Below are positions 4,052 to 61,985 of a DNA stretch of 64,000 nt, piece by piece. The position numbers were made by a program, and so were the translations under genes. The first letter of the stretch is position 1, and each line of letters starts with the position of its first letter. The stretch is from a virus (lineage: Duplodnaviria > Caudoviricetes): positions 12,751 to 76,750 of the IMG/VR virus record IMGVR_UViG_3300017691_000006. One strand, written 5' to 3'. Below the pieces are notes generated by a model. The model was not told the DNA's origin, did not search any database, and worked only from the letters and a program-made list of their open reading frames with translations.

Positions 4052-4071
4052 GGGTTAATTCAACGGGTTGG
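4052..4071 (-). promoter_or_regulatory. class A conserved motif, copy 1 (CCAACCCGTTGAATTAACCC)
   Basis: 20-bp motif repeated 6 times with one variable base; here immediately after the MuF-RNAP stop and upstream of scaffold/capsid. Confidence 0.8.
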
Positions 4072-4073
4072 CG

Positions 4074-7000
4074 TCAACCTACCCCGTACCATCCGTAATT
4101 CTGCTCGAAGTCGTAAGGGACCTCCTCCCTCACGTCGTCTTGCGTCAGGATGTCGTCCTCCGTCATCACCTTGCCGCCGACCACGGACCTGCCCGCAACG
4201 GGTATCAGGCCAGTGTCGATAGCTTCATCTAAGTACCTCTGGTATATCTCCTCGGGCAGTCCGCGACCCTTCATCTCGTCCAGGGTCATCTTTACCACGT
4301 TCTTGTCCAGCGTCTCTGCGTAAATCTCTCGGAGAGCCGAGCGACCGGGCAGCAGGTCGGCGATGTTGGTGAAGAACGCGTCGTGGATGGTGCTCGTGGC
4401 TACGCCCACGCGCTTGCCCCACTGGTGGAACTTCTTCACGATCACGGCGTCGTTGGAGTGGTTACCGTTCACGGCGAAGGCGGTGCGTGCCTTCGTGGGG
4501 TCGGCGATGTCGTTGATGGTACCAGCCTTGTTAAGGGTCTGGTCCCACCAGCTGGCCTCGGACTTCTGCGGGATCATCAGGATGTTGGTGACCCAGTTAC
4601 CCTCCTTGTCCTTGTAGACCAGTCTCTCCTCGAACGTCTGGGTGAAGTTCTGCTCGATCACCTTGCCGTCGAAGTTGACCCACGGGGCTCGAGTCCAGCT
4701 GCCCGGGACGGCGTTCTTGTCCTTGTACAGCACGTTGACCTCGGTCGCCTTCGTCAGGTCCTTGAGGGCCGTGATGCCGGTGTACTTCTCCAAGATGTCC
4801 GGGGCGTACCCCAGGTCCAGCTTGAAGAGCCGCTTACCCACGGTCCTGGTCTCGGGAGCCTGGGTGCCGTGCAGCAGCGTGTACAGCCCGGAGTCGGGCT
4901 TCCAGTCGTAGAAGTACTTCTCCAGCAGCTGCTCGGTCAGCGGGGTGCGCGCTGGCAGCCCCAGCATCTTGGACACGGCTGGAGGCAGGGTGTAACCCTT
5001 CTTGTAGTCACCTCGCAGGGCGAAGGAGGCCACGGACTTCCAGTCCAGCTCCGCGTTCGACGGCTTGGCGTTCCCGAGGAACTCGCCGGCCAGTCGCCCG
5101 AAGAAGCGGGTGAAGTCCTTGAGGATGGGGACCTGCTCCGCCAGGTGCTCGCTCATGATCTTGGCGATGCCCTGGAAGTCGGCGGGGGTCACGATCCGCT
5201 CGTACTGCTGGCTCAGCTTGTCCACGAGGTCGCGGGTGGCCGGGTCCAGGAAGTACAGCTGCTCCATGATCTCGTCGCCGGGGTCCTGCCCCTTGTTGAA
5301 GATGTCGCGCACGTTGGCACGCAGACCTCGGAGCTTCTCAGCACCGTCCGCGTCGTAGCGCTCCACCCTGGCGATGCGGGCGTCTATCTCGTTGAGCACC
5401 TTCTGCCGGTCGGAGGCGGTGACCACCAGCGTTCCGGAGTCCTTGCCCAGCACCTTGCCGAGCTTGCCCTCTACGTTGAGGATGCCCGTCTTCTCGCCCG
5501 CGCCGTAGAACGTGACCATGTTCTGTGCCTTAGCGGCCTTCTGCAGGTCCTTGAGCTTGAGGCCCAGCTTCTCGTTCAGCACCTTGAAGCGAGGGTCGTT
5601 GTAGGTGGCTGCCGCGATCTCGTCGTACAGGCGTCGCTTCTGCGTCGTCGGCACCACGTTGGACAGCGAGGCCAGCTGCTTGTTCCTCGTCGTGAGGGCG
5701 ATGATCTGTGCCCCCGAGGACGAGGCGTCCTGCTCCATGGCTAGCGCGGTCATGTAGTCGTCCAGCTTGTACAGGTTCGACTTCTCGAAGTTGCCGCGCA
5801 GGTGCTTGTTGAGCTTGGCCATCTCGATGGCGAACCGGAAGAACTTGCCCAGCTCCTCGCCGTCCACCTCGGCCACCACCGGGCTCTCCAGCACGAAGCG
5901 GAGGTCCGACGGCTTGGAGGAGATCATGGCCTCGCCTATCTCCACCAGCTCCGCCCTCCAGGCCTCGGCGATCCGCTGGCGACCCACGAAGGTGAGGCCG
6001 TCGTGGCGTCCCTCGAAGTAGTCGCTGAGGCCACCGAGGAAGGAGCCGATCTGGTCGGTGAGGGCGTAGTAGCCGTCCACCCCCAGGGGCTTCTCCACCG
6101 AGGTGTTGAGGAACGGGCGGAAGCTCTCGCCCGACTGCGGGCTGATGAGGCCACGGTCGTAGACGCGGGCGCGGTGGTCGATGAACGGGTGGTTGCTGAA
6201 CGCGACCTCCCTGCCCCTCAGCCACTGCATGGACTTGAACCGCTCGTAGGCGTCGCCGCGCGACGTGATGTACTTGCGGTAGTGGTTGAGCTCGTCGTAC
6301 TTCTTCGCGCTACCGCGGTCGTCGCGGAAGTACAGCAGCTTCTCGATGAAGTCGTAGAAGTCGGGGTCGATCTTGTACTGGGTCTGAGCGGCCCAGTTGA
6401 GCGCGTCCGACAGGCTCTTGTCCACGAACTCGACGGGGAAGTCGGAGAACGAGGAGGTCGAGGTGATCGGGATGCGGGTGTCGTAGTAGCCCAGCCCCTT
6501 CTTCACGAAGTAGGTCTTGTACCCCTCGCGCACCAGCAGCCGGTTGGACTCGTCGGTGACGGCCACGCGCAGCCCGAGCTCGATCTTGCGGTTGAGCTTG
6601 GAGTACTCTAGGATACGCGGGTCCACGACCTTGATGTAGTACGACAGCGTGTCGTAGTACGGGCCGAAGTAGGCTCCCGAGAGACGAGAGCGCATCCGTC
6701 GCTTCTGGACGGCGAACGCGTCGATCTCGAACAGGTGGCCGGCGTTCTTCTCCAGCAGCTTGAGCCCCAGGTTGTACCACTCCTTCCGCGTGCCGTTCAT
6801 GTTGGCGGCGTTGAAGAGGTCGCGACCCAGGGAGACGGCGACGCTGTCCCGGTCGGGGCTGTCTGCCATGCCCAGCCGCTGGGCGAACCGCTGGTAGAAC
6901 TCGCTGATCTGCTGCTCGGTCAGTCGGCTCCTGATCTTCTTGGGGATGTTCAGGTCGAGGATGTCACGGAGCTCGTTGGCGAGCTTGGGTGCCATGCTGT

Positions 7001-8744
7001 CGTCCCAGAGGTTCTTCCTCACGATGTTCGGGATGAAGTCTCGGGCCAGCTCGTCCAGCTGCGTCTCGCCCAGCACGGGGTCCACGTAGGCGTCCTTGGT
7101 CAGCTTGCGCAGCACGTCCTTGTCCTTGCGCAGCTGCGTCTCGATCGCGTCCGAGATGTTCATCACGTCGAACTTGATCTGGCTGTTCAGGACCGCCTTG
7201 AGGTTGCCCCAGGGCTCGCCGTTCCTGCGGAAGCGACCGATAGTGACGCGGAGGTTCTCGACCACCACGGCTCGCTCGTTCATGCCCATCTTTAGGGCCA
7301 GCGAGTCGTCCAGCTGGTTGATGAACTCCTTGTCCTGCTTGAGCAGGTCCGTGCTCTCGTCCACGCGCCTGAGGGCGCCCATGTAGACGTCCTGGTTGGG
7401 CTGGTAGACGCGCACGTCGTCGTAGCGCTGCGTCAGCGGGTTGTAGCGACGCTGGTCCTCGGTCGGAGGGGTCGTCAGCACCCGGTTGCGGGTGTTGCGC
7501 TTGTTGTGCAGCAGCGTGCCACGGTAAGAGGTGATGGACAGGTTGCCGTTCAGGTCGCCCGCCTGCAGGAGGTAGTAGTCCTGGAGCGTCTTCTGCATCC
7601 GGTACAGGTCCTCCGGCATGGAGGCTCCCAGCTGCATCGCGTCGAGGCGGGCCTTGGCGTTGGCGAACTTGCGGGTGTCGCCGGGGATGACGTAGTCGCT
7701 GTCGGTGAGCTGCCTGAGCTCCTTGATGCCGAGCGAGTTGCCCTCCGGGTTCGTGAACTTGTCTACGGTGAGCTCGCCCGAGTTGAGCATGCCCACCTGC
7801 TTGTAGTCGCCTAGGTGCCTGAGCTGAACGTCCAGCGGCTGTCGGAGCAGCCAGTCGTTGTAGCTCTCCCTGAGAGGGGTCTGCCCGTCGTAGAACGCCT
7901 TCTGGGCGTCCGTCAGGCCGTTGAGGTTGCGCCGACGCACCTCGCCGAGGCCCTCCAGCTTGCCGACGTCCTCCCAGCTCTTGAACACCGGGACAGTAGT
8001 GCTCCGGCAGTTCCAGTGAGCCGGAGGTAGGTGAGAGACATCACCGACAGGGTATATCTGACCGTCTCGGTGGGCGCAGATAGGGGTGGTACGGGAGTCG
8101 AGCACAGCCACGTACTGGTAGCCATCGATAGCCTTCGCGTTGGCCTCGTACACGGCGTGGTCTGCCTGCGCGTGCACCGAGGTGACGGCGGTCACGACCA
8201 AGGCCCTGGACTGCAGGCGCGTGATCTTGTTGACGTTGTTGCGGCGCAGGTCCAGCGCCATCTGCTCTACCGTGTCGCCGCGAGCGATGCCTGCCCGGAT
8301 GAGCAGGTCGATACGCTTGCGCTCGTTGGCGGAAACGTTCGACCACCCCGAAGCCAGGGTGGTCTCTCCGTAGAGCGGTCGCTCCAGCACGATCTCCTCC
8401 GCCACGCGGCGTACGGGTCGCTGGGTGCGCCATATCTTGCCCATCGTGTTCTCGACGGACTGGTAGGCGAAGGAGAGCTGGTCGGACACGAGGTCCAGCA
8501 GCGAGCGGCGCGACAGGGAGAAAGTCTCCTCGTGCGTGCGCATCAGCTCCTGGTCCACGGCCTCCCGCAAGCGCAGGAGACCCTTGGTGGAGGTCTCCGC
8601 GCCCCGGACCAGCTCGTCCAGCCGCTCCTCGTGGCCGTCAAGCACCAGGCTCACCTTGCCGTTCACACGCCGCTCGTACAGCCGTACCATGGCCGCGCGG
8701 TCGACGATCTTGTCGTAAAGTTGAGTGTTGGCGTTGTCGGCCAT
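4074..8744 (-). CDS. MuF/SPP1-gp7-like head morphogenesis domain fused to a T7-like single-subunit RNA polymerase (putative virion RNAP)
   Basis: MuF signature GYQYVAVLDSRTTPIC...PPAHWNCRST near aa 205-250; RNAP motifs IDHRARVY, EQDASSSGAQ (A), KAQNMVTFYG (B), HSNDA and TIHDAF (C); lies between portal and scaffold. Confidence 0.9.
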   Translation of the reverse strand: MADNANTQLYDKIVDRAAMVRLYERRVNGKVSLVLDGHEERLDELVRGAETSTKGLLRLREAVDQELMRTHEETFSLSRRSLLDLVSDQLSFAYQSVENTMGKIWRTQRPVRRVAEEIVLERPLYGETTLASGWSNVSANERKRIDLLIRAGIARGDTVEQMALDLRRNNVNKITRLQSRALVVTAVTSVHAQADHAVYEANAKAIDGYQYVAVLDSRTTPICAHRDGQIYPVGDVSHLPPAHWNCRSTTVPVFKSWEDVGKLEGLGEVRRRNLNGLTDAQKAFYDGQTPLRESYNDWLLRQPLDVQLRHLGDYKQVGMLNSGELTVDKFTNPEGNSLGIKELRQLTDSDYVIPGDTRKFANAKARLDAMQLGASMPEDLYRMQKTLQDYYLLQAGDLNGNLSITSYRGTLLHNKRNTRNRVLTTPPTEDQRRYNPLTQRYDDVRVYQPNQDVYMGALRRVDESTDLLKQDKEFINQLDDSLALKMGMNERAVVVENLRVTIGRFRRNGEPWGNLKAVLNSQIKFDVMNISDAIETQLRKDKDVLRKLTKDAYVDPVLGETQLDELARDFIPNIVRKNLWDDSMAPKLANELRDILDLNIPKKIRSRLTEQQISEFYQRFAQRLGMADSPDRDSVAVSLGRDLFNAANMNGTRKEWYNLGLKLLEKNAGHLFEIDAFAVQKRRMRSRLSGAYFGPYYDTLSYYIKVVDPRILEYSKLNRKIELGLRVAVTDESNRLLVREGYKTYFVKKGLGYYDTRIPITSTSSFSDFPVEFVDKSLSDALNWAAQTQYKIDPDFYDFIEKLLYFRDDRGSAKKYDELNHYRKYITSRGDAYERFKSMQWLRGREVAFSNHPFIDHRARVYDRGLISPQSGESFRPFLNTSVEKPLGVDGYYALTDQIGSFLGGLSDYFEGRHDGLTFVGRQRIAEAWRAELVEIGEAMISSKPSDLRFVLESPVVAEVDGEELGKFFRFAIEMAKLNKHLRGNFEKSNLYKLDDYMTALAMEQDASSSGAQIIALTTRNKQLASLSNVVPTTQKRRLYDEIAAATYNDPRFKVLNEKLGLKLKDLQKAAKAQNMVTFYGAGEKTGILNVEGKLGKVLGKDSGTLVVTASDRQKVLNEIDARIARVERYDADGAEKLRGLRANVRDIFNKGQDPGDEIMEQLYFLDPATRDLVDKLSQQYERIVTPADFQGIAKIMSEHLAEQVPILKDFTRFFGRLAGEFLGNAKPSNAELDWKSVASFALRGDYKKGYTLPPAVSKMLGLPARTPLTEQLLEKYFYDWKPDSGLYTLLHGTQAPETRTVGKRLFKLDLGYAPDILEKYTGITALKDLTKATEVNVLYKDKNAVPGSWTRAPWVNFDGKVIEQNFTQTFEERLVYKDKEGNWVTNILMIPQKSEASWWDQTLNKAGTINDIADPTKARTAFAVNGNHSNDAVIVKKFHQWGKRVGVATSTIHDAFFTNIADLLPGRSALREIYAETLDKNVVKMTLDEMKGRGLPEEIYQRYLDEAIDTGLIPVAGRSVVGGKVMTEDDILTQDDVREEVPYDFEQNYGWYGVG

Positions 8745-15953: not shown

Positions 15954-16390
15954 CCCTCCACCACCTGATCGTCCTCCTCGCGGTCACCCGTGTGGTAGAC
16001 GGCTCCCTTCTTCGTGGTGTGAACGACGAACGCGGGCATCCTCTTGTCCTCCACCACCGTGGTCTCGGGAACGCGACCGTACCCGTACCTCAGCAGCTTG
16101 TCGCTGATGTTCATCTTCTTGTCCAGCAGCTTGTCCAGGTTGTCCGGGTACCACGCCATCTCCAGACCCTTGGTCGTGAAGCGGATGATCTCCCTGTCCC
16201 TGTACTTGTACTCTAGTTGGATCAGCGCCTCGACCTCACGGTACAGCACCACCAGCTCCTGTATGGGGTCGAAGCTGAGCTGAGCCAGTCGTTCCTTGGA
16301 GCGGGCAGACCCAGCGTGCATACGCTTCTGGGCTGTCAGCTGGTTGTCGTGAAGGCGAGGTTGCTCGATCACGCGCTTTGCGTCTGTCAC
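15950..16390 (-). CDS. putative terminase small subunit
   Basis: 146 aa helical protein, first gene of late operon, shortly upstream of terL. Confidence 0.55.
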   Translation of the reverse strand: MTDAKRVIEQPRLHDNQLTAQKRMHAGSARSKERLAQLSFDPIQELVVLYREVEALIQLEYKYRDREIIRFTTKGLEMAWYPDNLDKLLDKKMNISDKLLRYGYGRVPETTVVEDKRMPAFVVHTTKKGAVYHTGDREEDDQVVEG

Positions 16391-16698
16391 GGCTACACCT
16401 CTGAGACTGCGGGCACAAAACTCCTTGAGAGCGCATCCCCGCTGTGTTAGTATCGTTAATCTAACGGCCTCGGTGCAAGCCGCGTGTGGCTGACCCCAGC
16501 GTGCGGTCCCGTCGCTCTCCTCCCTATGTACGATCCGTGGACCCTCTCGGGTACGATCCCTCAGCGAGAGGGTGCTGACCCAGGGTACCCTCCCCTAGCC
16601 TCCTCTATCAGTATATAGATATATTATATATTTGTTATACCCTATACCTACCCTACCCAGAGGGGGATAGAGGGGCCTTACGGCCGGGAGGCGGCTCA

Positions 16699-16718
16699 GG
16701 GTTAATTTAACGGGTTGG
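16699..16718 (-). promoter_or_regulatory. class A conserved motif, copy 2
   Basis: GGGTTAATTTAACGGGTTGG on plus strand, at the head of the terminase/late operon. Confidence 0.8.
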
Positions 16719-16765
16719 GCCCTAAGGCGCGAGGTTGACAGTGCGTTGCTCTGAGGTATATAGCC

Positions 16766-16845
16766 AAAAAATAAATAAGGTAGGAGCCCCTCCGGGCACA
16801 CCATTCCAGCCCGCGAGGGACCAGAACGATGTGCCCGGAGGGGCT
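16766..16845 (-). terminator. long hairpin followed by a U-rich tract, ending the accessory operon
   Basis: Perfect 16-bp inverted repeat 16785-16800/16830-16845, then TTATTTATTTTTT on the minus strand. Confidence 0.65.
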
Positions 16846-30223: not shown

Positions 30224-30260
30224 GGTTTCTCCTCTCGGCCGTAAAAAGTTTAGGTGGGAG

Positions 30261-30287
30261 GGTCAGTTTAGCGTCGTGACCAGGACG
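30261..30287 (-). ncRNA. H-type pseudoknot element, copy 1
   Basis: RNA CGUC-CUGGUCAC-GACG-CUAAAC-UGACC; loop GGUCA pairs with UGACC. Confidence 0.7.
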
Positions 30288-36798: not shown

Positions 36799-37389
36799 TT
36801 AGCCCTGCGCTTCGGCAGCGGCTTCCTTCTCGGCCTTCTGCGCCGCCATCTTCTGGCGGTACGCCTCCAGGCCGGCGGCTGCCTGCGGCGAGACCTCGCG
36901 CTTCGGCTTGCCCGCGTCGAACGACGTCAGGATGGCGTCCTTGTTCGCGTAGACGAGCTCGGCGAGCTTCTCGTTGCCCTCGGCGACCTCGGTCAGCGCT
37001 GCGGTCGCTGCGGCGCTCTGCTCCTCGTCCGTCATGCGCTTGACCGACGGCCAGCGGAACGACGCCTTGAACGCGTCGACGTTGTCCACGACGAACGCGG
37101 CCTGGCGGTCGCCGGCGAGGGTCGTCGCGATGTAGTCGAGCGCCTTGGTGAGCGCGGTGTTCTCGGACTTGGTGACGCGCTTGATCTTGCCGGTCTCGAG
37201 TGCGACCTCGACCTTCTCGCGGTTCTCGACCAACCAGTTGGCGATCTTCTCGTTCGCCTCACCGGCGGGCAGTGCAGCGCGCAACGCCGCGACGATCTGC
37301 GGGCGACGCTGGTAGTCCTGGGCCTCGGCCTTGGTCTCGAAATAGATGCCGTCGACGACGTAAACGGGCTTCAGTTCGTTCGATGCCAT
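36799..37389 (-). CDS. helical hypothetical protein behind two class A motifs
   Basis: 196 aa (MASNELKPV...), very strong codon bias suggesting high expression. Confidence 0.65.
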   Translation of the reverse strand: MASNELKPVYVVDGIYFETKAEAQDYQRRPQIVAALRAALPAGEANEKIANWLVENREKVEVALETGKIKRVTKSENTALTKALDYIATTLAGDRQAAFVVDNVDAFKASFRWPSVKRMTDEEQSAAATAALTEVAEGNEKLAELVYANKDAILTSFDAGKPKREVSPQAAAGLEAYRQKMAAQKAEKEAAAEAQG

Positions 37390-37438
37390 GTGAATCAAAT
37401 CTCTCTCAGATGCGGGCCGCAGGTGCGCGACCCTTTCA

Positions 37439-37458
37439 GGGTTAATTTAACGGGTTGG
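37439..37458 (-). promoter_or_regulatory. class A conserved motif, copy 3
   Basis: GGGTTAATTTAACGGGTTGG. Confidence 0.8.
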
Positions 37459-37485
37459 GGTGCCCGTCGCTCAGCCCTGTGAACA

Positions 37486-37505
37486 GGGTTAATTTAACGG
37501 GTTGG
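37486..37505 (-). promoter_or_regulatory. class A conserved motif, copy 4
   Basis: GGGTTAATTTAACGGGTTGG, 47 bp from copy 3. Confidence 0.8.
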
Positions 37506-44685: not shown

Positions 44686-46416
44686 TTACTTTTTCGCCCA
44701 AGTTGATTCAACAGGTCCGAACGACTCTTCCTCGTCGTCCATCGAGTCCACGTCAGCTGCGTGGAGACGGCCAGTATCGTGGTCGTAGATCGCGCCCGTA
44801 ACCCGGCCCGTGAGGCCGGTGGTGCGCGCCTTGAGCACAGCCATCTTGATCGTGTTTCTTGCCTTCTCCTCCTTCGCGTTCAGGTTACGTGCGAACGCGA
44901 TGATGTCGAAGCAGATCTGCTTGATCGAGCCGGAGCCCTTGATGTCGTCCAGGGTGGGCAGCTTGCCCTCCTCGAACGATACGGCGCCGGAGCCCACCTT
45001 ACGTAGGTGGCTGACCAGACCGATCCACACCGGGTACCGCTTGACGATACTCAGCAGGTCGTTCATGATCTTGTCTTGGGCCTCGTTGCCCTGCAGCTTC
45101 TCAACACCCTCCGACACGAGGATGGTGATGTGGTCGATGATGATGTACTTGCAGCCCATGAGGCACATGTACTCGATCTTGTCGATGATCGAGGTATCGT
45201 TCATGCTGCCCTGGTGGTCGAGCATCATGATGCGCTCTGGCTCGTCGTCCGTGCCGAACAGCTCGTCGAAGCCACGCTCGAGCTCCTCGAACGCCATCTC
45301 CTCCTTCGCCGTGTTGCGGCTGAGCTGCATGCCCGACAGGCGTCGAGCCTCTGCCTCGGGCGACTCCTCCAGCGCACAGATGCCGATCTTGTCCTCGGGC
45401 GCTGCGGCGCGCTTGATCTCCAGCACGATCTCGCGCAGGAGGGTGGACTTGCCGGAGCCGGTGCCCGAGGTCAGCAGCGTGATCTCGCCGAAGCGCATGC
45501 CCTTGAGCTTGCTGTTCACGCCCTCCATGCACGCCGGGTAGGGCAGCGCGGAGACCGAGTTCAGCAGACGCATGCGCTCCTTGAGGACCGCGCGCGTGAG
45601 GATGCCGCCGGGGGTGGCGGGCATGGCGTCGAAGATCACCTGCGTGATCGCCTTGATGCCGGGCACCTCGGTCGAGCGCAGCAGCGTCTCGTTGGCGTCC
45701 TTGAAGGTCTGGTGCTTCGCCAGCTTGACCTTGTCGTAGCCGATCATCTTGGTAGCCTTCTCGGCTGCCTCCCTGCCCGGCTCGTCGTTGTCGAACCAGA
45801 GGATGACCTCGCCGAAGGACCTGATCCACTCGCGGTTCATCGCGATGAGTTTCAGGTTGGCGCTGCTGCCCATCGTGACGACGGGGTAGATCTTGTTCCA
45901 GGTCTTGCGGCTGGCGTAGGCCACCGCCATCGCGTCGGGCTCGCCCTCAGTGATGATCAGCCGCTTGCCGCCGCCGTTGAACTTGTCTTGACCGAACAGC
46001 CGCTCCTGGCTGCCGACCTGGAAGAAGTCCTTGTCGTGGACCTTGCGCACGTTGTAGGCGTTGTCGCCGTACGGGTAGTAGTGCGTGTCGATGTCGCCCT
46101 TGGTGTCGAACGAGACCCTGACCTCGAAGAACTCGGCGATGTCGCGCGGGATACCCCGCTCTCGAAAGCCTCGCATCTGGAAGGTCTTGACCTCCTCTAC
46201 CGTCAGCTTCTTCGCCACCGGAGCGAAGTCATCGTCGTCGTCGCGCACCCTGGGTTTTACCTCGATTGTACCTGCTGCGTCCACTTGGCGCTTGGTGAAG
46301 TTTTCCTTGCACGAGAAGCAGAAGGCGCTCCCGTCCTCGTACAGAGCCATCGCGTTCGATGACTTACAGAAGTCTTGATCTAGACAGGGGTTCTTGTACT
46401 TGACAATTGTACCCAA
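44686..46416 (-). CDS. T7 gp4-like primase-helicase
   Basis: N-terminal Cys4 zinc finger (CLDQDFC...CFSC), TOPRIM ITEGEPDA and WFDND, Walker A SGTGSGKS, IIIDHI, VSHLR, GSGSIKQ. Confidence 0.93.
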   Translation of the reverse strand: MGTIVKYKNPCLDQDFCKSSNAMALYEDGSAFCFSCKENFTKRQVDAAGTIEVKPRVRDDDDDFAPVAKKLTVEEVKTFQMRGFRERGIPRDIAEFFEVRVSFDTKGDIDTHYYPYGDNAYNVRKVHDKDFFQVGSQERLFGQDKFNGGGKRLIITEGEPDAMAVAYASRKTWNKIYPVVTMGSSANLKLIAMNREWIRSFGEVILWFDNDEPGREAAEKATKMIGYDKVKLAKHQTFKDANETLLRSTEVPGIKAITQVIFDAMPATPGGILTRAVLKERMRLLNSVSALPYPACMEGVNSKLKGMRFGEITLLTSGTGSGKSTLLREIVLEIKRAAAPEDKIGICALEESPEAEARRLSGMQLSRNTAKEEMAFEELERGFDELFGTDDEPERIMMLDHQGSMNDTSIIDKIEYMCLMGCKYIIIDHITILVSEGVEKLQGNEAQDKIMNDLLSIVKRYPVWIGLVSHLRKVGSGAVSFEEGKLPTLDDIKGSGSIKQICFDIIAFARNLNAKEEKARNTIKMAVLKARTTGLTGRVTGAIYDHDTGRLHAADVDSMDDEEESFGPVESTWAKK

Positions 46417-50941: not shown

Positions 50942-51544
50942 TCAGAAGATCTCGTCGGGGTCGATGTTCGCCGAGTGCGGGTTCGCAGCTGCAGCCGCCT
51001 GAGCGGGAGCAGGCTTCGGAGCCGGGGTCGCCTGAGCGCCGGGAGTCGCCTCCTCGGTCGGTGCCTCGACGCGGACGGTCGTGGCGGTGCCGAACTCGTC
51101 GCCCTCGTCGCGCACGCGCGGGACGTAGACGATGTGCGTGGTGAGCTGGACGCCCATGAGCACCGACGCCTTGCCGGACTGGCCGGACTCGCGGTCGGTG
51201 TAGTCGTACTGGAAGATTCGAATGTTCGCGATCGAGCCGTTGCCGATCGACTCGGGGTCAACGGGCTTCATGTCGCCGTCGATGAGGTCAGGCGCCTTGC
51301 CGTCCTCGCCGCTGGACTTCTTGGACTTCTTGCGCAGGTTCGCGCGGTAGTAGTCGATCGGCGCGTCCTCGTCCTGACGGACGGCGGTCACGCGGATGCC
51401 GAGCGCTCGCCACTCGTTCGCTTGGTCCTTGCTCTTGGTCCGGAGCTGGACTTCCCACGTGGGGTTCTCAGCGTTCACCTTCTTGCTGGGCTTCTCGGGA
51501 TTCAGCTTCGCGTACCAGATTTCGCAGTCACGGATAATGGCCAT
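50942..51544 (-). CDS. single-stranded DNA-binding protein (T7 gp2.5-like)
   Basis: OB-fold-like core, IGNGS.AN motif, acidic flexible tail ending in aromatic F (DPDEIF); upstream of DNA polymerase. Confidence 0.7.
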   Translation of the reverse strand: MAIIRDCEIWYAKLNPEKPSKKVNAENPTWEVQLRTKSKDQANEWRALGIRVTAVRQDEDAPIDYYRANLRKKSKKSSGEDGKAPDLIDGDMKPVDPESIGNGSIANIRIFQYDYTDRESGQSGKASVLMGVQLTTHIVYVPRVRDEGDEFGTATTVRVEAPTEEATPGAQATPAPKPAPAQAAAAANPHSANIDPDEIF

Positions 51545-51585
51545 TGTATACCTTCGTCGAGAATGAGTTGTTTGTGACCCTGTAA

Positions 51586-51605
51586 GGGTTAATTCAACGG
51601 GTTGG
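51586..51605 (-). promoter_or_regulatory. class A conserved motif, copy 5
   Basis: GGGTTAATTCAACGGGTTGG at the head of the SSB/replication operon. Confidence 0.8.
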
Positions 51606-52278: not shown

Positions 52279-54519
52279 TTAGACGAAACAGTAGTCGGAG
52301 TCCTTCACCAGCGTGATGTCGAGCGTGCCGAACTCGACCTGGCTGATGTCGCCCATGATGTCTTCCATGATGTTGCCGAGCGGGTCGGCGTCGTACAGCT
52401 CCACGAACGTGTCGCGGATCAGCTGGAAGAGCTCGGGCATGTCGGCCAGCAGGCAGCCGAACGAGTCGTGGATGGTAGTGATCGGGAAGTCTGCCTTGGC
52501 CACCGTGATGGTCAGGTGGGCGGCGTCGAGCGAGTGGATGGCGTTCGGCGAGGCGCCGGACACCTGCTTGCCCTTCGACGGCACCTGGTTCTCGATGAAG
52601 CAGATGGCGATCTGGTACGTGTTCGCGTAGTAGCCGGTGGACAGACGCTCGCCGACCGGCGGGCCGTACTGCACCCAGATCTTGCGCGACACGCCCTCGG
52701 TGTAGTACTGGACGACGGGGAAGTCGGTGACCGGCACGGTCCACGACAGGAACTCCCCGGCCTCCTCCGCCTCCCTGCCCGCGTTCTCGAACACGGACAG
52801 CAGCTGCATCGGGCGGCGGAGGCTGACCCGGCAGTCGTCGAACACGACGCGGCCTAGGTAAGAGCCCCACTTGTGCTCCATGAACAGGAGCTTGTCGATG
52901 CCGTGCTTCTTGGAGTCGTCGATCTGCTGCTGGCCCAGGCCGTACGGGGTGCCGCCGTAGGGCAGGGTCATGACGTTGCGCTTGACGATCTTGCGCCGCT
53001 CCTTGGCGTCCGTGACGGACAGCCAGTAGACGGGACTGGACAGGTCGCCGATGCGCTTGTGCATGTCCTTGTAGGCCCGGACCTCGTCGATGAGCATGCT
53101 GCGCTGCACGCTCTTCGGCTCGAGGTTCTGGATGGTCTTCTTGTACTGCACCAGCGTGTCGATGTAGGACACGCAGGCCTTGTAGTCCTCCGGCAAGTAC
53201 GCGGCGACCTCCAGCTGCAGCCGCTCCCACACGTGGTCGGCGACGTACTTGTAGAGGTCACCGGGCAGCTCGCTCGGCACCAGGTTGACGTGCGGCGCCG
53301 TCTCCTCGTCCCTGGTGAGCGCCGAGAGGTGCTGGCTGCCGTTGTTGGAGCCGTCGATGTACACCTCCAGCGAGGACTCGTAGTCGTAGTTCTCGTAGTC
53401 GCCGCCCTGCTGGGTCTGCCAGATACGGAGCTTCATCAGCTCGGTGCAGGCGGCAAGGAACTGCCAGGGCTTGTCGGCCTTCATCCAGCCCTGGTTCACG
53501 CGTGGCTGCTCGGCGTACGAGAGCAGGATGTCCTCGTGCTCCTTACACCACGCGTACCGATCCTTCAGAGGGATCTTGTCGGTCTTTGCCTTGTCTGGTC
53601 GACCAGCATCTCCTGCCCAATTCGAAGCAATGGAGACAAGGAGCCAGAAGAAACCAGGCTCGCCAATCCGCTTGCGATCTGCTCGGAGGAGAAGTCCCCT
53701 TGCCAGATCACTACCTTGCTCGTGGAGGTAGGCGGTGGTGGGGTACTTGCGCCCACGGAAGTCGAAGTAATAGAGATGGTAAAATCGTCGGCCAAGGAAC
53801 CGGCCAGCGATATCTCCAATCGCCTTCGCTTCTCTGAGCTTGGTGGCTCGGGCGTCTTTGCTAGACTGCTCCCAGATATCGCTGAAAGCATCTGTCTTGT
53901 TGCCCAGCGCCCAACGGTACGTTTGATAGATGTCTTGATTGACATTCCAACCAACCTCCTGTGCTTTGTTGAGACAAGCGAACAGCATCGGGTGCGTCTC
54001 GAGCGTGATCTTGTCGAGGACGTCCCTGCTGCCCGTCTTAACCATCGGCATCCCCGTGGCGTGCCTGGAGGTGGTCCAGGGCTCGTACGGGGTCACCGAC
54101 GGCAGCTTCTCGTTGGTCGAGGAGGTCACGGAGGACCACAGACCGACGATGCCGTCGTCGTCCACGAGTCGGACGATGTAGGCGGCGTGGCTCTTGTTGC
54201 CCTGACCGAGTATCACCTCGATCATCTGCAGCTTCTGGAAGGACCACAGCAGGAACGCGCCGGTCTTGGCGGCCAGGCTGGAGTCCCGCTTCTGCTTGAG
54301 CTTGGAGCGCACCGAGTGGCCCAGAGCAGCCACCATCTCCGAGAAGTAGATGGCGGTGCTGCCGAAGCCCTTCTTGACACGCGTGTACATGTACACGACC
54401 GAGATCACGGTGTCAAGGTATTCTTCCACTTGGAACTGCTTGAGGTACTTGAGCGGGTTGCGCGGCGAGACCTCAACCTCGAGCCGCTCCTCAATGCTCT
54501 TCTTCAGCTCAGCGCGCAT
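52279..54519 (-). CDS. T7-like single-subunit DNA-dependent RNA polymerase (746 aa)
   Basis: YYFDFRGRKY, KPWQFLA, IDGSNNGSQH (A), RKIVKRNVMTLPYG (B), PNAIHSLDAAHL and TIHDSF (C). Confidence 0.96.
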   Translation of the reverse strand: MRAELKKSIEERLEVEVSPRNPLKYLKQFQVEEYLDTVISVVYMYTRVKKGFGSTAIYFSEMVAALGHSVRSKLKQKRDSSLAAKTGAFLLWSFQKLQMIEVILGQGNKSHAAYIVRLVDDDGIVGLWSSVTSSTNEKLPSVTPYEPWTTSRHATGMPMVKTGSRDVLDKITLETHPMLFACLNKAQEVGWNVNQDIYQTYRWALGNKTDAFSDIWEQSSKDARATKLREAKAIGDIAGRFLGRRFYHLYYFDFRGRKYPTTAYLHEQGSDLARGLLLRADRKRIGEPGFFWLLVSIASNWAGDAGRPDKAKTDKIPLKDRYAWCKEHEDILLSYAEQPRVNQGWMKADKPWQFLAACTELMKLRIWQTQQGGDYENYDYESSLEVYIDGSNNGSQHLSALTRDEETAPHVNLVPSELPGDLYKYVADHVWERLQLEVAAYLPEDYKACVSYIDTLVQYKKTIQNLEPKSVQRSMLIDEVRAYKDMHKRIGDLSSPVYWLSVTDAKERRKIVKRNVMTLPYGGTPYGLGQQQIDDSKKHGIDKLLFMEHKWGSYLGRVVFDDCRVSLRRPMQLLSVFENAGREAEEAGEFLSWTVPVTDFPVVQYYTEGVSRKIWVQYGPPVGERLSTGYYANTYQIAICFIENQVPSKGKQVSGASPNAIHSLDAAHLTITVAKADFPITTIHDSFGCLLADMPELFQLIRDTFVELYDADPLGNIMEDIMGDISQVEFGTLDITLVKDSDYCFV
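53565..53945 (-). CDS. candidate overprinted 126-aa ORF inside the RNAP gene (+1 frame)
   Basis: ATG 9 nt after AGGAGG; stop-free for 126 codons; coincides with a sharp loss of GC3 bias in the RNAP frame. Confidence 0.55.
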   Translation of the reverse strand: MSIKTSIKRTVGRWATRQMLSAISGSSLAKTPEPPSSEKRRRLEISLAGSLADDFTISITSTSVGASTPPPPTSTSKVVIWQGDFSSEQIASGLASLVSSGSLSPLLRIGQEMLVDQTRQRPTRSL

Positions 54520-55556: not shown

Positions 55557-55593
55557 GGTTGTACCTCTTAGCCGTAAAAAAGTTAGGTGTGGA

Positions 55594-55620
55594 GGCCAGT
55601 TTAACGTCGTAGCCAGGACG
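55594..55620 (-). ncRNA. H-type pseudoknot element, copy 4
   Basis: RNA CGUC-CUGGCUAC-GACG-UUAAAC-UGGCC. Confidence 0.7.
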
Positions 55621-55689
55621 TGCTCGAAGCCGAAAAATATTTTAGCGGAGAACGCCCACGAGGGGCGGCAGTAAAAATATTAGGTAGTA

Positions 55690-55716
55690 GGGCAGTTTTA
55701 CGACTTGCCCAGGTCG
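55690..55716 (-). ncRNA. H-type pseudoknot element, copy 5
   Basis: RNA CGAC-CUGGGCAA-GUCG-UAAAAC-UGCCC; both stems covary; contains the stop codon of the upstream gene. Confidence 0.7.
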
Positions 55717-56124: not shown

Positions 56125-56162
56125 CCTAGGTGGATATCATATAAGATACCCGCTTTTGCGCG
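56125..56162 (-). promoter_or_regulatory. class B conserved motif
   Basis: Plus strand CCTAGGTGGATATCATATAAGATACCCGCTTTTGCGCG. Confidence 0.75.
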
Positions 56163-56165
56163 GTA

Positions 56166-56313: not shown

Positions 56314-56351
56314 CCTAGGGTGATATCATATAAGATACCCCTATTTGCGCG
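56314..56351 (-). promoter_or_regulatory. class B conserved motif
   Basis: Plus strand CCTAGGGTGATATCATATAAGATACCCCTATTTGCGCG. Confidence 0.75.
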
Positions 56352-56353
56352 TT

Positions 56354-56542
56354 TTAGAGGTGCTCCAGGATGTCCTTCACAGCGAAGGTTCTCACCGCGC
56401 GCTTGTCCACGTCGTAGGCGCGGAGCAGCCACTGCTTCTGGGGGTGGTACTTGTTTGAGCTCCACACCAGCGGGCGGTGGGCGTTGGGGACGACGTGCCG
56501 CACGGACACGTCTCCCTTGTAGTTCCGGTAGCGGAACCTCAT
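56354..56542 (-). CDS. stand-alone WYL-domain protein (62 aa)
   Basis: FRYRNYKG..S.RHVVP...WLLRAYDVDKRAVRTFAVKDI matches the WYL pattern; ATG at 56542 overlaps upstream stop. Confidence 0.7.
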   Translation of the reverse strand: MRFRYRNYKGDVSVRHVVPNAHRPLVWSSNKYHPQKQWLLRAYDVDKRAVRTFAVKDILEHL

Positions 56543-58739: not shown

Positions 58740-58774
58740 GTCTTTGCTCTCGCCGAAAAGTAGTTAGGTGTGGA

Positions 58775-58801
58775 GGCCAGTTTAACGTCGTGGCCAGGAC
58801 G
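58775..58801 (-). ncRNA. H-type pseudoknot element, copy 6
   Basis: RNA CGUC-CUGGCCAC-GACG-UUAAAC-UGGCC. Confidence 0.7.
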
Positions 58802-59871: not shown

Positions 59872-60447
59872 TCACTCCTTGCCGTCTGCTAGGGCAAATG
59901 CCTTGAGTACGTCAGCCCTGTCCTTCACCACCCACTCAGCGCGGTTAGGGCCTATAGATGGTAGCTTACCTACGGCCTCGCGAGCTTCCTCATCAGGTAG
60001 CGCGAGGTATTCTGCAACCTGCGCTCGCATTTCCAACAAGCGGAAGGCCGTCAGTTCGCCCACGAACGGCAGCCGTGCAAGGATGCGAACAGCCTCATTC
60101 CAGCGTGTGTAGCTGTCCTCCTCCTCTGGAGAAGAGAAGGCTGACGGCTCCCTGGGGACGAGCGCTAGGGCAGCTTGCACTTGCTCGCGCATTACCCACA
60201 GGGACCGCACCCAGTCAACGCGGAACTTTTCTGGCAAACCGTGCAGCAAGGCTAACCATCCCTCTGAGTAGTCCATCGATGCCGGTAGCTTGGCGTAGAG
60301 GTCAGTTATCTCTCTTCTGTAAGTTATTATAGTATTGACAGCAGTGCTGCCATTGATACCAGGCAACGCCTGTAGGGCGTCGTTGAGCACGGCCAACTCC
60401 TCGCCGCTGTACAGCGCGATAGTGGCCTTGACGTTGCGGAGCCTCAC
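59872..60447 (-). CDS. protein with two helix-hairpin-helix DNA-binding motifs, atypical codon usage
   Basis: LQALPGINGSTA and VGKLPSIGPNRA; probable GTG at 60447. Confidence 0.5.
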   Translation of the reverse strand: MRLRNVKATIALYSGEELAVLNDALQALPGINGSTAVNTIITYRREITDLYAKLPASMDYSEGWLALLHGLPEKFRVDWVRSLWVMREQVQAALALVPREPSAFSSPEEEDSYTRWNEAVRILARLPFVGELTAFRLLEMRAQVAEYLALPDEEAREAVGKLPSIGPNRAEWVVKDRADVLKAFALADGKE

Positions 60448-60527
60448 TTGCGGAACAGCCACTTGAAGACGTGGACCAGCACGAGGCACTTGATGAAGTC
60501 ACGGAACATAGTCATTCTCCTCTTGGG

Positions 60528-60881
60528 TTAGAACTTGTACTTACCAGTCGCTCGCATGAGCTTGTGGATGTGCCTGTACAGGTTGCCGACGGTGCAGGCC
60601 ACGGTCTCTTCGCCGGGATCGTCCTCACCGATGGCTTTCAGCAAGGCGACGGCGGCGTGGACGCACTCGTGCGCCAGCGTGGTCTGCAGCTCGAGGCCCC
60701 GCTGGGAGGCATCGATGTAGACCAGCAGCTGGCCGTCAAACAGCTTGTCGAAGACGCTGCCGTAGGGCGTACCATCCAGCGGCGGGAGGTCGTGCTTACG
60801 CATGAACTTGTTGAGCTTCTTAGCACTGGTGAACAGGCGGACAGATGCGCCGTCTGCCGAGACTAGCGTGATCTTTCGCAT
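60528..60881 (-). CDS. small HExxH putative zinc metallopeptidase-like protein
   Basis: TLAHECVHAA...IGEDDPGEE; paralog of 9056..9496; first gene after a class B motif. Confidence 0.6.
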   Translation of the reverse strand: MRKITLVSADGASVRLFTSAKKLNKFMRKHDLPPLDGTPYGSVFDKLFDGQLLVYIDASQRGLELQTTLAHECVHAAVALLKAIGEDDPGEETVACTVGNLYRHIHKLMRATGKYKF

Positions 60882-60890
60882 GGGTACTCC

Positions 60891-60921
60891 AAAATAAAGG
60901 GAGACCTCCGAAGAGATCTCC
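60891..60921 (-). terminator. intrinsic terminator after endolysin
   Basis: GGAGATCTC-TTCG-GAGGTCTCC-CTTTATTTT. Confidence 0.8.
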
Positions 60922-60957
60922 TAGGTGGATATCATATAAGATACCCGTTTTTGCGCG
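60920..60957 (-). promoter_or_regulatory. class B conserved motif at the start of the early region
   Basis: Plus strand CCTAGGTGGATATCATATAAGATACCCGTTTTTGCGCG. Confidence 0.75.
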
Positions 60958-61497
60958 CTACGCCTCGTTGGTAGAGAGCTTACCCTTGGCGCTGACGTGG
61001 TAGCGCTTCACCGAGGGCGGCAGCGCGGTCTTGAAGGCGGGGCGGCGAGCCTTGAACAGCCGGGACTTGGCGATGCGGGTCACGCACACCTTGTCGGACT
61101 GGTTGCCTCCCAGCACGTGGTAGGCGTCTGCGTCCTCTGCGACGTAGAAGCCGACGTGGCCACCGCCGTCGCGCTTGAAGGTCAGCAGGTCGCCCAGCTC
61201 CGGCGCTGCCTGCGCCGTACCGAACGTCGACCAGTTCAGCGCGTACAGCGGACCCTTGACCACCTCCTTGCCCGCGCGCTTGGAGACGATCGCGGCGAAC
61301 AGCCCGCACCAGGGTACGCTGTCGTCGGAGTACTTGTAGCCCAGCGCCGGGATGCCCAGCTCCGTGGCCCACGCCATGATGATGGGGTTGCTCTTCTTGC
61401 CGGGCGTCTCGACCGTGCCGTGGAGCTTGAGGGCCTCCTGCAGCAGCTTGGGGAGCGTGCCGAGGTCGTCCAGCCACTCGTAGCCGGGGACGCTCAC
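60958..61497 (-). CDS. putative endolysin, TIGR02594-family (NlpC/P60-CHAP-like Cys-His peptidase)
   Basis: NPIIMAWA, DDSVPWCGLF, GDLLTFKRDGGGHVGFY, VLGGNQSD. Confidence 0.8.
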   Translation of the reverse strand: MSVPGYEWLDDLGTLPKLLQEALKLHGTVETPGKKSNPIIMAWATELGIPALGYKYSDDSVPWCGLFAAIVSKRAGKEVVKGPLYALNWSTFGTAQAAPELGDLLTFKRDGGGHVGFYVAEDADAYHVLGGNQSDKVCVTRIAKSRLFKARRPAFKTALPPSVKRYHVSAKGKLSTNEA

Positions 61498-61661
61498 TTG
61501 CGCTTCTTCCCGGTGATCGCCTCGATGATGGCGGGCGCGTTCTCGGTCACGGTCGCCACGATGACCTGCTCCACCTTAGGCGTCGGGGTCGGCTGAGCCT
61601 TCGCGATCTTCGACAGCAGGAACGCCGTCGCCAGGTCCACCAGTACTTTTGGAATCTTCAC
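61494..61661 (-). CDS. 55-aa hypothetical protein in the lysis cassette
   Basis: GTG at 61661; stop overlaps endolysin start. Confidence 0.4.
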   Translation of the reverse strand: MKIPKVLVDLATAFLLSKIAKAQPTPTPKVEQVIVATVTENAPAIIEAITGKKRK

Positions 61662-61869
61662 TACGCTTCTCCTTGGCTGAGCCGAAGTAGTAGGTCACCA
61701 CCGTAGCCACGACCGTACCGAGCATGAAGCCCAGGATGGTGTCGGCGAATCGGACGGATGACTTCTCGATATGGATGAAGGTGATGCACGTGATGTACAC
61801 CGCCGAGAAGATCGACCAGAACACCGCGAGGAATGTCCTCACGGATAGGCGATCCAGGATAGTTGACAT
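61576..61869 (-). CDS. putative holin (two TM helices)
   Basis: Two hydrophobic segments, YYFGS and charged C-terminus; upstream of endolysin. Confidence 0.6.
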   Translation of the reverse strand: MSTILDRLSVRTFLAVFWSIFSAVYITCITFIHIEKSSVRFADTILGFMLGTVVATVVTYYFGSAKEKRSEDSKSTGGPGDGVPAVEDREGSADPDA

Positions 61870-61965
61870 CTGTACCCCTCTACCTTATAGTTATTCTCTT
61901 AGGGTCTCTATACCTACCCTCCCTCCCTCTATACTCCAGAGGGGCCTACGGCCGGGGGCGGCAAA

Positions 61966-61985
61966 GGGTTAATTTAACGGGTTGG
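61966..61985 (-). promoter_or_regulatory. class A conserved motif, copy 6
   Basis: GGGTTAATTTAACGGGTTGG at the head of the lysis cassette. Confidence 0.8.

What the first reader, a model, noticed from the sequence alone, without database searches (positions are those of the whole stretch)
4052..61985. Class A motif: six near-identical 20-mers heading major operons
Seen: GGGTTAATTYAACGGGTTGG (minus strand CCAACCCGTTRAATTAACCC) at 4052, 16699, 37439, 37486, 51586 and 61966. All are intergenic, in the same orientation, and upstream of scaffold/capsid, terminase, a highly biased 196-aa gene (twice), SSB/replication and holin/endolysin. Inference: phage RNAP promoter with a consensus unlike T7/SP6. 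The core GTTRA-A-TTAAC is quasi-palindromic, so an operator for a dimeric regulator is an alternative.
Basis: partly seen in the sequence, partly recalled or inferred. Interest (0 to 1): 0.8.

Follow-up and report, generated by a model that had tools for sequence, protein, structure and literature searches.

The report
Promoter of the phage's own RNA polymerase
Six identical 20-base signals in this 77-kb tailed-phage genome are very probably the promoters read by the phage's own small T7-like RNA polymerase; the signal is shared by a large family of uncultured phages and I found no published description of it.

Summary
There are six exact copies, all on one strand and all between genes, and none elsewhere in the 76,750-bp genome. 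No copies are expected by chance.

Genes run on the minus strand, so the sense motif is CCAACCCGTTRAATTAACCC. Its core, A-N-CCCGTTAAATTAACCC-T, recurs at the same gene junctions in about 60 uncultured relatives with 38-63% GC. In the 57 loci around the polymerase gene it is 64 sense to 1 antisense.

Conservation is asymmetric, which argues against a symmetric operator.

The key result is covariation. Changes at motif positions 1-5 go with changes in four residues (TGYY) of the free 746-aa T7-like RNA polymerase. These residues align to the T7 specificity loop. This happened in six independent lineages (Fisher 1.3e-6), and it is the top signal of 742 windows scanned.

By analogy with T7, transcription would start at A13 or A12. 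That is also where a covarying hairpin (ACCC-loop-GGGT) begins at 33 of 86 sites.

Verdict: a middle/late promoter of the phage's T7-like polymerase. It is a new member of a known kind. No 5' ends were mapped, so the start site and the hairpin's role are inferred.

The parts
4052..4071 (-). Class A promoter before the scaffold and major head genes. The conserved 19-nt block is 4051-4069. Predicted start is A at 4055, giving a 116-nt leader to the scaffold ATG at 3939.
16699..16718 (-). Class A promoter of the 'leader type' (a C-rich box follows it), before the 146-aa gene and the large terminase. Predicted start is 16702, 312 nt before the GTG at 16390.
37439..37458 (-). Proximal copy of the tandem class A pair before the Ala/Glu-rich 196-aa gene. 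Predicted start is 37442, giving a 53-nt leader.
37486..37505 (-). Distal copy of the tandem class A pair. Predicted start is 37489.
51586..51605 (-). First class A promoter after the RNAP gene, before the gp2.5-type SSB and the replication genes. Predicted start is 51589, giving a 45-nt leader.
61966..61985 (-). Class A promoter of the 'leader type' before the holin-like and lysozyme-like genes. Predicted start is 61969, giving a 100-nt leader.
51577..51589 (-). Hairpin ACCCT-tac-AGGGT. Its 5' arm is the last bases of the motif.
37430..37442 (-). Hairpin ACCCT-gaa-AGGGT.
37475..37488 (-). Hairpin CCCTG-ttca-CAGGG.
4043..4054 (-). Hairpin CCCA-ggta-TGGG.
52279..54519 (-). Free 746-aa T7-like single-subunit RNA polymerase, the proposed reader of the motif. 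Residues 628-631 (TGYY) covary with the motif.
16764..16845 (-). A 27-bp-stem hairpin followed by a T-run (intrinsic-terminator-like), ending 46 nt upstream of the 16699 promoter (about 65 nt from the end of the stem). It closes the preceding transcription unit.
16453..16468 (-). Degenerate sense copy (GCCGTTAGATTAACGA, 4 mismatches to the core), 63 nt before the 146-aa gene. Possibly a weak second promoter.
50942..51544 (-). gp2.5-type SSB gene downstream of the 51586 promoter.
36799..37389 (-). Ala/Glu/Lys-rich 196-aa gene of unknown function behind the tandem promoters.
3247..3939 (-). Scaffold gene, with the start corrected by alignment to homologs.
61576..61869 (-). Holin-like 97-aa gene with two hydrophobic segments, first gene after the 61966 promoter.
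4074..8744 (-). 1556-aa MuF head-protein / RNAP-domain fusion. This is the second polymerase and the rival reader of the motif.

Best explanation
The motif is the middle/late promoter of the phage's own free 746-aa T7-like single-subunit RNA polymerase.

Shown by sequence analysis: a 19-bp asymmetric block (sense A-N-CCCGTTAAATTAACCC-T) stands in one orientation at the heads of five gene blocks: replication (SSB), an abundant 196-aa protein (two copies), packaging, head (scaffold/capsid) and lysis.

Inferred mechanism: early genes, including the polymerase gene, are transcribed from other signals (the class B and C elements). These would be read by the host polymerase or by the capsid-delivered MuF-RNAP. 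The new polymerase then binds the class A duplex. Its specificity loop would read the left part (positions 1-5, roughly -13 to -8). The AT-rich TAAATTA would melt. Transcription would start at A13 (or A12), so the RNA begins (A)ACCC.

At many sites these first bases are also the 5' arm of a short hairpin. This would put a stem-loop at the very 5' end of the mRNA, probably to protect it from degradation.

About a quarter of family sites, including 16699 and 61966 here, instead carry a C-rich box 7-12 nt downstream and a long leader. The role of that box is unknown.
For: (1) Six exact copies with 0 expected, all sense and all intergenic.
(2) The core is conserved in relatives of 38-63% GC at syntenic junctions before SSB, the 196-aa gene, the scaffold, the terminase block and lysis.
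(3) In 57 loci the count is 64 sense to 1 antisense and none inside the RNAP gene. In 43 loci the nearest site lies 343-3734 nt after the RNAP stop. No site lies closer than 2.5 kb upstream of the RNAP start.
(4) The block has sharp edges (positions -1 to 17) and asymmetric conservation.
(5) The 746-aa protein is a T7-like RNAP: Pfam RNA_pol E=9e-65, T7 RNAP in PDB E=5e-45, motifs DGSNNGSQH and HDSFG, and an alignable specificity loop.
(6) Covariation across 57 non-redundant lineages: 49 have a canonical loop ([ST]GY[YF]) with a canonical motif (CCGT at positions 2-5). Six have a changed loop with a changed motif, and three of these are confirmed at two sites per genome. Two lineages are discordant. 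Fisher p = 1.3e-6.
(7) Parsimony gives 6 independent origins, and each variant's nearest neighbours are canonical.
(8) A blind scan of all 742 four-residue windows of the RNAP ranks the two loop windows first (2.6e-5, against 0.009 for the next best).
(9) One variant lineage (L217) came from a later, separate data set and fitted the prediction.
(10) A strong terminator-like hairpin plus T-run lies just upstream of site 16699.
(11) A hairpin starts at A13/C14 in 33 of 86 sites, against 4.0 +/- 1.9 in shuffles. Its stem extensions covary, and three cases have G-U pairs on the sense strand.
(12) The shortest distance from motif end to the SSB start codon is 29 nt, so the transcription start must lie in or just after the block.
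Against: No transcript 5' ends and no biochemistry are available. The start site at A13/A12 rests on analogy with T7 RNAP-promoter contacts (established knowledge: R746, N748, R756 and Q758 contact -7 to -11) and on a pairwise alignment of moderate confidence in that loop.

A start with A followed by CCC is unusual for T7-group enzymes, which mostly start with G.

The covariation was noticed first and then tested. After Bonferroni correction over 742 windows, the first data set gives about 0.02. No formal phylogenetic correction was made beyond counting origins by parsimony. Two lineages are discordant (L045, L055).

The MuF-fused RNAP could not be given the same covariation test, because its gene lies outside most fetched loci.

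Some lineages replace the 3' ACCC by ATGA or ATCT, so that part is not strictly required.
Confidence: 0.8

Rival explanations
1. The motif is the promoter of the other polymerase, the 1556-aa MuF-RNAP fusion that is presumably packed in the capsid and injected.
For: The fusion carries an RNAP domain: phrog_414 E=1e-19 and Pfam RNA_pol E=1.5e-7. It is conserved in all full-length relatives. It is made late, so it could be present when late genes are read. It could not be tested for covariation here.
Against: Covariation singles out the specificity-loop region of the free 746-aa RNAP as the top signal of 742 windows. The fusion has no alignable specificity loop. The sites head middle and late operons and begin just after the free RNAP gene. 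An injected enzyme is expected, by analogy with N4, to serve early genes, where other conserved elements (class C) are found.
Confidence: 0.08
2. The motif is the binding site of another sequence-specific factor. That could be a DNA operator for a dimeric regulator, using the inner palindrome GTTAA-A-TTAAC. It could instead be an RNA-level box plus hairpin, read by a processing or antitermination protein in the way lambda boxA-boxB is read.
For: The inner 11-mer is palindromic (sequence). A conserved linear box directly followed by a short hairpin resembles nut sites in architecture (nut anatomy from established knowledge). Most early proteins have no recognisable family, so an unknown factor cannot be excluded.
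Against: Conservation is asymmetric: the left half varies, the right half is invariant, and the flanks are unlike. Half-sites 6 bp apart are too close for typical helix-turn-helix dimers (general knowledge). The hairpin loop is not conserved, and the hairpin is absent from more than half of the sites. No sigma factor or regulator was recognised among the 28 proteins scanned with Pfam. This reading leaves covariation with the RNAP loop unexplained.
Confidence: 0.08
3. The motif is a sequence-specific pause or termination signal for a phage polymerase (like the T7 class II signal), closing the upstream unit rather than opening the downstream one.
For: The sites lie at the 3' ends of upstream operons as much as at the 5' ends of downstream ones. 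A tandem pair could give tighter termination.
Against: The scaffold and capsid genes have no other intergenic space for a promoter, because the motif fills the 134-nt gap after the MuF-RNAP gene. Site 16699 already has a hairpin plus T-run terminator upstream of it. Specificity-loop covariation is the hallmark of promoter recognition. Distances to downstream start codons are short and regular, 29-57 nt before SSB.
Confidence: 0.03

Closest known systems
T7/T3/SP6-group single-subunit RNAP promoters (class II/III)
   Same: One asymmetric block of about 19-23 bp in a single orientation. It heads the SSB, head and other middle/late genes and begins just after the RNAP gene. There is an AT-rich stretch before the presumed start. 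Recognition involves the specificity loop, shown here by covariation.
   Different: The sequence is unrelated in register. The predicted start is A followed by CCC rather than GGG. The enzyme is 746 aa rather than 883 aa. The genome is a 77-kb siphovirus with only six copies and a second, capsid-linked RNAP.
Repeated motif of roseophage DSS3_VP1 (Naomviridae), ATAGGkTrCGTTAAAGAGGGGGA, found here and not described in its paper
   Same: It is sense-only, with about 13 copies. These include one before the SSB homolog and three in tandem before the portal gene. It shares the heptamer CGTTAAA. Its conserved 3' end (AGGGG) also forms the 5' arm of downstream hairpins. The genome architecture is the same, with a free RNAP (35% identity) and a large head-morphogenesis protein.
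   Different: The flanks differ (GGGTG against CCC; a G-rich rather than C-rich 3' end). The specificity-loop sequence also differs. No promoter analysis appears in PMC8323127.
Phage N4 virion-RNAP hairpin promoters
   Same: A phage-coded single-subunit-type polymerase and a small hairpin next to the conserved sequence.
   Different: As I recall them, N4 promoters need a 5-7-bp stem with a 3-nt loop and specific bases, upstream of +1, at early genes. Here the hairpin is present at only 33 of 86 sites, its loops vary from 3 to 5 nt with no conserved bases, it starts at the presumed +1, and the sites serve middle and late genes.
Lambda nut sites (boxA plus boxB hairpin)
   Same: A linear conserved box followed by a short CCCT...AGGG-type stem-loop.
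   Different: The loop is not conserved. The element sits at operon heads, not inside transcripts downstream of a known promoter. It covaries with an RNAP rather than with an N-like protein.

Membership tests
T7-group single-subunit RNAP promoter | The genome encodes a T7-like single-subunit RNAP with catalytic motifs and a specificity loop | tested here: met
   phrog_414 E=3e-114. Pfam RNA_pol E=9e-65. T7 RNAP 1aro/1cez E=5e-45 with DGSNNGSQH, HDSFG and an aligned loop.
T7-group single-subunit RNAP promoter | One conserved asymmetric block of about 17-23 bp, in a single orientation, intergenic, at the heads of gene blocks | tested here: met
   Six of six copies are sense and intergenic. The block is 19 nt with sharp edges. 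The count in relatives is 64 sense to 1 antisense.
T7-group single-subunit RNAP promoter | Copies begin after the RNAP gene and do not drive it | tested here: met
   The nearest site lies a median of 884 nt after the RNAP stop in 43 loci, and none lies within 2.5 kb upstream. The 61966 site follows tail genes (Pfam Phage_Tail_Tip), so it heads the last late block.
T7-group single-subunit RNAP promoter | Base-specific recognition by the specificity loop (promoter and loop change together) | tested here: met
   Counts are 49 canonical/canonical, 6 variant/variant and 2 discordant, p = 1.3e-6. There are 6 independent origins. The loop windows rank 1-2 of 742.
T7-group single-subunit RNAP promoter | AT-rich -4 to -1, purine at +1, conservation ending near +6 | tested here: inconclusive
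   This fits if +1 is A13 or A12: ATTA would precede the start and conservation ends at T17. The start site itself is inferred, not mapped.
T7-group single-subunit RNAP promoter | RNAP-dependent initiation at the site | not testable with these tools
   This needs run-off transcription or 5'-end mapping.
N4 virion-RNAP hairpin promoter | An obligatory DNA hairpin with a short conserved loop at every promoter, upstream of +1, at early genes | tested here: not met
   The hairpin is present at 33 of 86 sites, loops are variable, and the sites lie before middle and late genes.
Operator of a dimeric regulator | Two-fold symmetric conservation of half-sites | tested here: not met
   A7, A8 and A9 vary (G, G, C/T), while their symmetry partners T10 and T11 are invariant. 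The flanks are asymmetric.
Lambda-type nut site | A conserved boxB loop read by an N-type protein, located inside a transcript | tested here: not met
   Loop sequences differ between sites and genomes, and the hairpin is absent at most sites.

The most novel reading that the evidence does not exclude
The promoter hard-wires mRNA 5'-end protection. Its own first transcribed bases (ACCC) are kept both as the initiation sequence and as the 5' arm of a stem-loop that begins at nucleotide +1. Every strong transcript is therefore born with a terminal hairpin. The sites that lack this hairpin have a C-rich box and a long AT-rich, repeat-bearing leader instead. Those sites may use the same promoter for another purpose, such as transcription-activated replication or packaging in the manner of T7, or masking of the holin ribosome-binding site.
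Probability: 0.3. Interest if true: 0.6.

Novelty: new member of a known kind. Interest (0 to 1): 0.45.

Why it matters
It gives the transcription map of a large, globally distributed but almost wholly uncultured group of about 75-80-kb siphoviruses, distant kin of the dU-containing Naomviridae. The map has an early block without the signal, then five middle/late units headed by it.

It assigns the signal to one of the two phage polymerases, which makes the two-polymerase cascade testable.

It also offers a compact 746-aa polymerase with a 19-bp promoter. Nature has already produced at least six loop/promoter variants, which are ready candidates for orthogonal expression pairs.

The motif can serve as a marker for finding and orienting genomes of this family in metagenomes.

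Tried and rejected
- Megablast of 25 kb against cultured phages found no match. Relatives had to be found by protein.
- Rfam and tRNA scans found only a tRNA-Trp and nothing at the sites.
- A literature search for the motif string returned no papers. The Naomviridae papers contain no promoter analysis.
- The 10-base identity with the T3 promoter was rejected as homology, because nothing is conserved at the T3 spacing.
- A start at the GGG of the hairpin's 3' arm was rejected. Its distance from the motif varies by 4-9 nt, and more than half of the sites lack it.
- An antisense promoter (reading GGGTTAATTTAAC|GGG) was rejected. There are no genes on that strand, and the covarying bases would then fall at the start site, not under the specificity loop.
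- MFE folds of six 'leader-type' downstream regions gave no shared structure.
- The consensus terminator scan missed the long-loop hairpin before site 16699, which was found by folding.
- Sequence and profile searches did not name the SSB. Only the fold search did.
- The scan of bacterial genomes gave 9 hits in 596 Gb, about the chance level. Several hits lie on short MAG contigs (10-74 kb) that may be phage DNA; one has the same length as a viral contig of this family. The motif is therefore not a host element.
- Within-genome variation at position 9 (A/C/T) showed no clean link to the polymerase.
Full report
**Observation**

Six copies lie on the + strand at 4052, 16699, 37439, 37486, 51586 and 61966. 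There are no further matches with up to three mismatches, and none are expected in shuffled sequence. The window is bases 12751-76750 of a 76,750-bp virus record rated 97% complete, and the rest of the record has no copy. Third-position GC shows that nearly all genes run on the minus strand. The motif is therefore in sense orientation and reads CCAACCCGTTRAATTAACCC.

**The genome**

This is a siphovirus-type genome. Identified parts are:
- a 3246-aa tape measure protein
- portal, large terminase, scaffold and major head protein
- a T7-type replication set: family A DNA polymerase, primase/helicase, 5'-3' exonuclease, ligase and ribonucleotide reductase
- a free 746-aa T7-like RNA polymerase
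- a 1556-aa protein that joins a MuF head domain to a diverged RNAP domain

The 200-aa gene after 51586 has no Pfam or PHROG hit. An AlphaFold model built on 22 homologs (pLDDT 85) matches DUF2815, T7 gp2.5 and the Enc34 SSB at E about 1e-5. Nearly all its homologs end in Phe or Tyr, as gp2.5 does. The scaffold gene really starts at 3939, so that site has a 116-nt leader. The protein upstream of site 61966 is tail-tip-like. The lysis block is therefore the last late unit, and the contig ends are arbitrary.

**Relatives**

The nearest cultured phages are the roseophages DSS3_VP1 and DSS3_PM1 (Naomviridae), with RNAP 35% identical. IMG/VR and JGI metagenomes hold many closer, uncultured relatives with RNAP 50-72% identical and genomes of about 70-82 kb.

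The core CCCGTTAAATTAACCC is found in almost all of them, including genomes of 38-48% GC against 63% here. Whole-genome comparison with four relatives shows the sites at the same junctions: before SSB, before the Ala/Glu-rich gene (often in tandem), before the scaffold, before the terminase block and before lysis.

In the 57 loci around the RNAP gene:
- there are 64 sense copies and 1 antisense copy
- none lies inside the RNAP gene
- in 43 loci the nearest copy lies 343-3734 nt (median 884) after the RNAP stop
- none lies within 2.5 kb upstream of the RNAP start

A scan of 596 Gb of bacterial genomes gave only 9 hits, about the chance number. Several lie on short MAG contigs (10-74 kb) that may be phage DNA, and one has the same length as a viral contig of this family. 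The motif is thus a phage-family signal, kept under strong selection through large shifts in base composition.

**Anatomy**

Eighty-six non-identical sites define a block with sharp edges: A at -1 (82 of 86), a weakly constrained base, the 16-mer, and T at 17 (59 of 86). Nothing is conserved beyond these edges.

The inner GTTAA-A-TTAAC is palindromic, but it is not conserved symmetrically. A7, A8 and A9 change to G, G and C/T in 6-15 sites, while T10-C16 are essentially invariant. This asymmetry, the unlike flanks and the strict orientation argue against a two-fold symmetric operator.

Two downstream types exist.
- In 33 of 86 sites a hairpin starts at A13 or C14: (A)CCC, a 3-5-nt loop, GGG(T). 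Shuffled downstream sequence gives 4.0 +/- 1.9 such sites. The stem extension covaries (CCCT/AGGG, CCCA/TGGG, CCCTCA/TGAGGG, CCCTG/CAGGG, CCCG/CGGG). Three stems use G-U on the sense strand, which favours an RNA or sense-strand structure.
- In 22 of 86 sites a C-rich box (CCYCCC) starts 7-12 nt after the motif and is followed by AT-rich sequence. A control window gives 3 such sites. Sites 16699 and 61966 are of this type.

**Which polymerase**

The 746-aa enzyme aligns to T7 RNAP through the palm and the specificity loop. Its R-L-S-TGYY-AN-T-Y-Q corresponds to T7 R746-L-N748-LMFL-GQF-R756-L-Q758.

Among the relatives, the few lineages whose motif differs at positions 1-5 are the same lineages whose loop differs at TGYY:

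| Lineage | Loop | Motif start | Sites seen |
|---|---|---|---|
| L037 | TGHY | GCTG | 2 |
| L067 | TNYF | GCTG | 2 |
| L058 | CNHY | GCTGG | 1 |
| L049 | TGRY | CTGG | 1 |
| L073 | SGYS | CCCTG | 2 |

A scan of every four-residue window of the polymerase, run without regard to the loop, ranks the two loop windows first, at 2.6e-5 against 0.009 for the next best. A later, separate set from metagenomes added 15 canonical-loop lineages, all with canonical CCGT. It also added one new variant lineage, L217, with TGHY and AATG at two sites.

In all 57 non-redundant lineages the counts are 49 canonical/canonical, 6 variant/variant and 1 + 1 discordant, Fisher 1.3e-6. On the RNAP tree the six variants are six separate origins, each with canonical nearest neighbours.

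The MuF-fused polymerase shares only the catalytic motifs with the free enzyme. It has no alignable specificity loop.

I therefore assign the motif to the free 746-aa polymerase. I could not run the same test on the fused enzyme, because its gene lies outside most fetched loci.

**Start site and mechanism (inferred)**

In T7 the specificity loop reads about -11 to -7 (established knowledge). If motif positions 1-5 occupy that region, +1 falls at about position 12-15. The only purines there are A12 and A13.

This places ATTA or TTA just upstream of the start, much like the T7 TATA. It also ends conservation at about +5 or +6, as in T7.

It makes the RNA begin (A)ACCC, which is exactly where the covarying hairpin begins. 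The transcript would then carry a stem-loop at its very 5' end. I propose this acts as a stabiliser, and that is a guess.

The start must in any case lie in or just after the block, because the shortest distance to the SSB start codon is 29 nt including the ribosome-binding site.

Upstream of site 16699 a 27-bp stem followed by a T-run closes the preceding unit. That is the terminator-then-promoter layout expected at an operon boundary.

**Comparison with the known**

The architecture is that of T7-group promoters, but the sequence is new. No paper in the searchable library holds the motif string.

DSS3_VP1 has its own sense-only repeat, ATAGGkTrCGTTAAAGAGGGGGA, in about 13 copies. These include one before its SSB homolog and three before the portal gene. 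It shares CGTTAAA with the motif here and is likewise followed by hairpins built on its conserved 3' end. This repeat is not discussed in that phage's paper. Lineages with RNAP about 45% identical lack the motif and presumably have their own.

N4-type hairpin promoters and lambda nut sites resemble the box-plus-hairpin layout but fail their defining features (see the membership table).

**Limits**

No RNA data exist for this uncultured phage. The covariation was seen first and then tested. The window scan, the later data set and the six independent origins reduce the risk of a false signal but do not remove it.

**Verdict**

The motif is a new member of a known kind, of moderate interest.

Noticed in passing
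window 56125-56165, 56314-56354, 60920-60960 (minus strand): The 'class C' element (sense ACGCGCAAA-N6-GGTATCTTATATGATATC) is also conserved, sense only, in relatives G001-G005 despite 40-63% GC. It opens the early region just after the lysis genes. It is a candidate early promoter for the injected MuF-RNAP or for the host polymerase.
   Followed up: partly
window 30238-30287, 55571-55620, 55667-55716, 58752-58801 (minus strand); two more copies at sense genome coordinates 33074 and 33724: The 'class B' element contains a 5-bp stem around the loop CGACGTTAAAC, with compensatory changes between copies (GGCCA/TGGCC, GGGCA/TGCCC, GGTCA/TGACC). It sits 20-30 nt before start codons, twice in tandem upstream of the RNAP gene. 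It is poorly conserved in relatives.
   Followed up: partly
window 16391-16698 (minus strand): A 312-nt non-coding leader follows promoter 16699. It contains the C-rich box, the most AT-rich tract of this GC-rich genome, short G-rich repeats (TAGGG / AGAGG types) and a degenerate second motif at 16453-16468. Similar repeat-bearing leaders follow the equivalent sites in relatives. This could be a pac site or an origin region.
   Followed up: partly
window 61869-61965 (minus strand): In the 100-nt leader before the holin-like gene, the C-rich box (CCCCTCT) is complementary to the gene's ribosome-binding region (AGAGGGG), and the MFE fold pairs the 5' end with that region. This may be translational masking of the holin.
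   Followed up: no
window 4074-8744 (minus strand): A single 1556-aa ORF joins a MuF/SPP1-gp7 head domain (residues about 1-350) to a diverged single-subunit RNAP domain (residues about 850-1500). It is conserved at 57-71% identity in relatives, and DSS3_VP1 has a large 'head morphogenesis' protein at the equivalent position.
   Followed up: partly
L129/L130 (DSS3_VP1, NC_055826.1), e.g. 2336, 7411, 19205, 19240, 19329, 29399, 45929, 46554: The cultured roseophage DSS3_VP1 carries about 13 sense-strand copies of ATAGGkTrCGTTAAAGAGGGGGA at gene-block heads. This is a likely promoter of its own RNAP, not reported in its paper.
   Followed up: partly
L057, L061-L065, L067, L070, L073, L075, L076 (RNAP match spans of about 2.75-3.3 kb against 2.24 kb): The RNAP gene of several relatives is interrupted by an insertion of about 0.5-1 kb (intron or intein).
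   Followed up: no
L059 at 24 and 13401; also L055, L057, L038: Some lineages carry motif copies whose 3' end is ATGA or ATCT instead of ACCC, with the rest intact. The first transcribed bases are therefore not strictly fixed.
   Followed up: no
L007:1817-11557 (genome 1817-11557, minus strand; outside the window): The tape measure protein is 3246 aa, which implies an unusually long tail. It has an SLT lytic transglycosylase domain near residue 2700.
   Followed up: no
window 44700-44715 (minus strand): A weak sense-strand look-alike (CCTGTTGAATCAACTT, 5 mismatches) lies at the end of the primase/helicase gene, 17 nt before the ribonucleotide reductase start codon. It could be chance.
   Followed up: no
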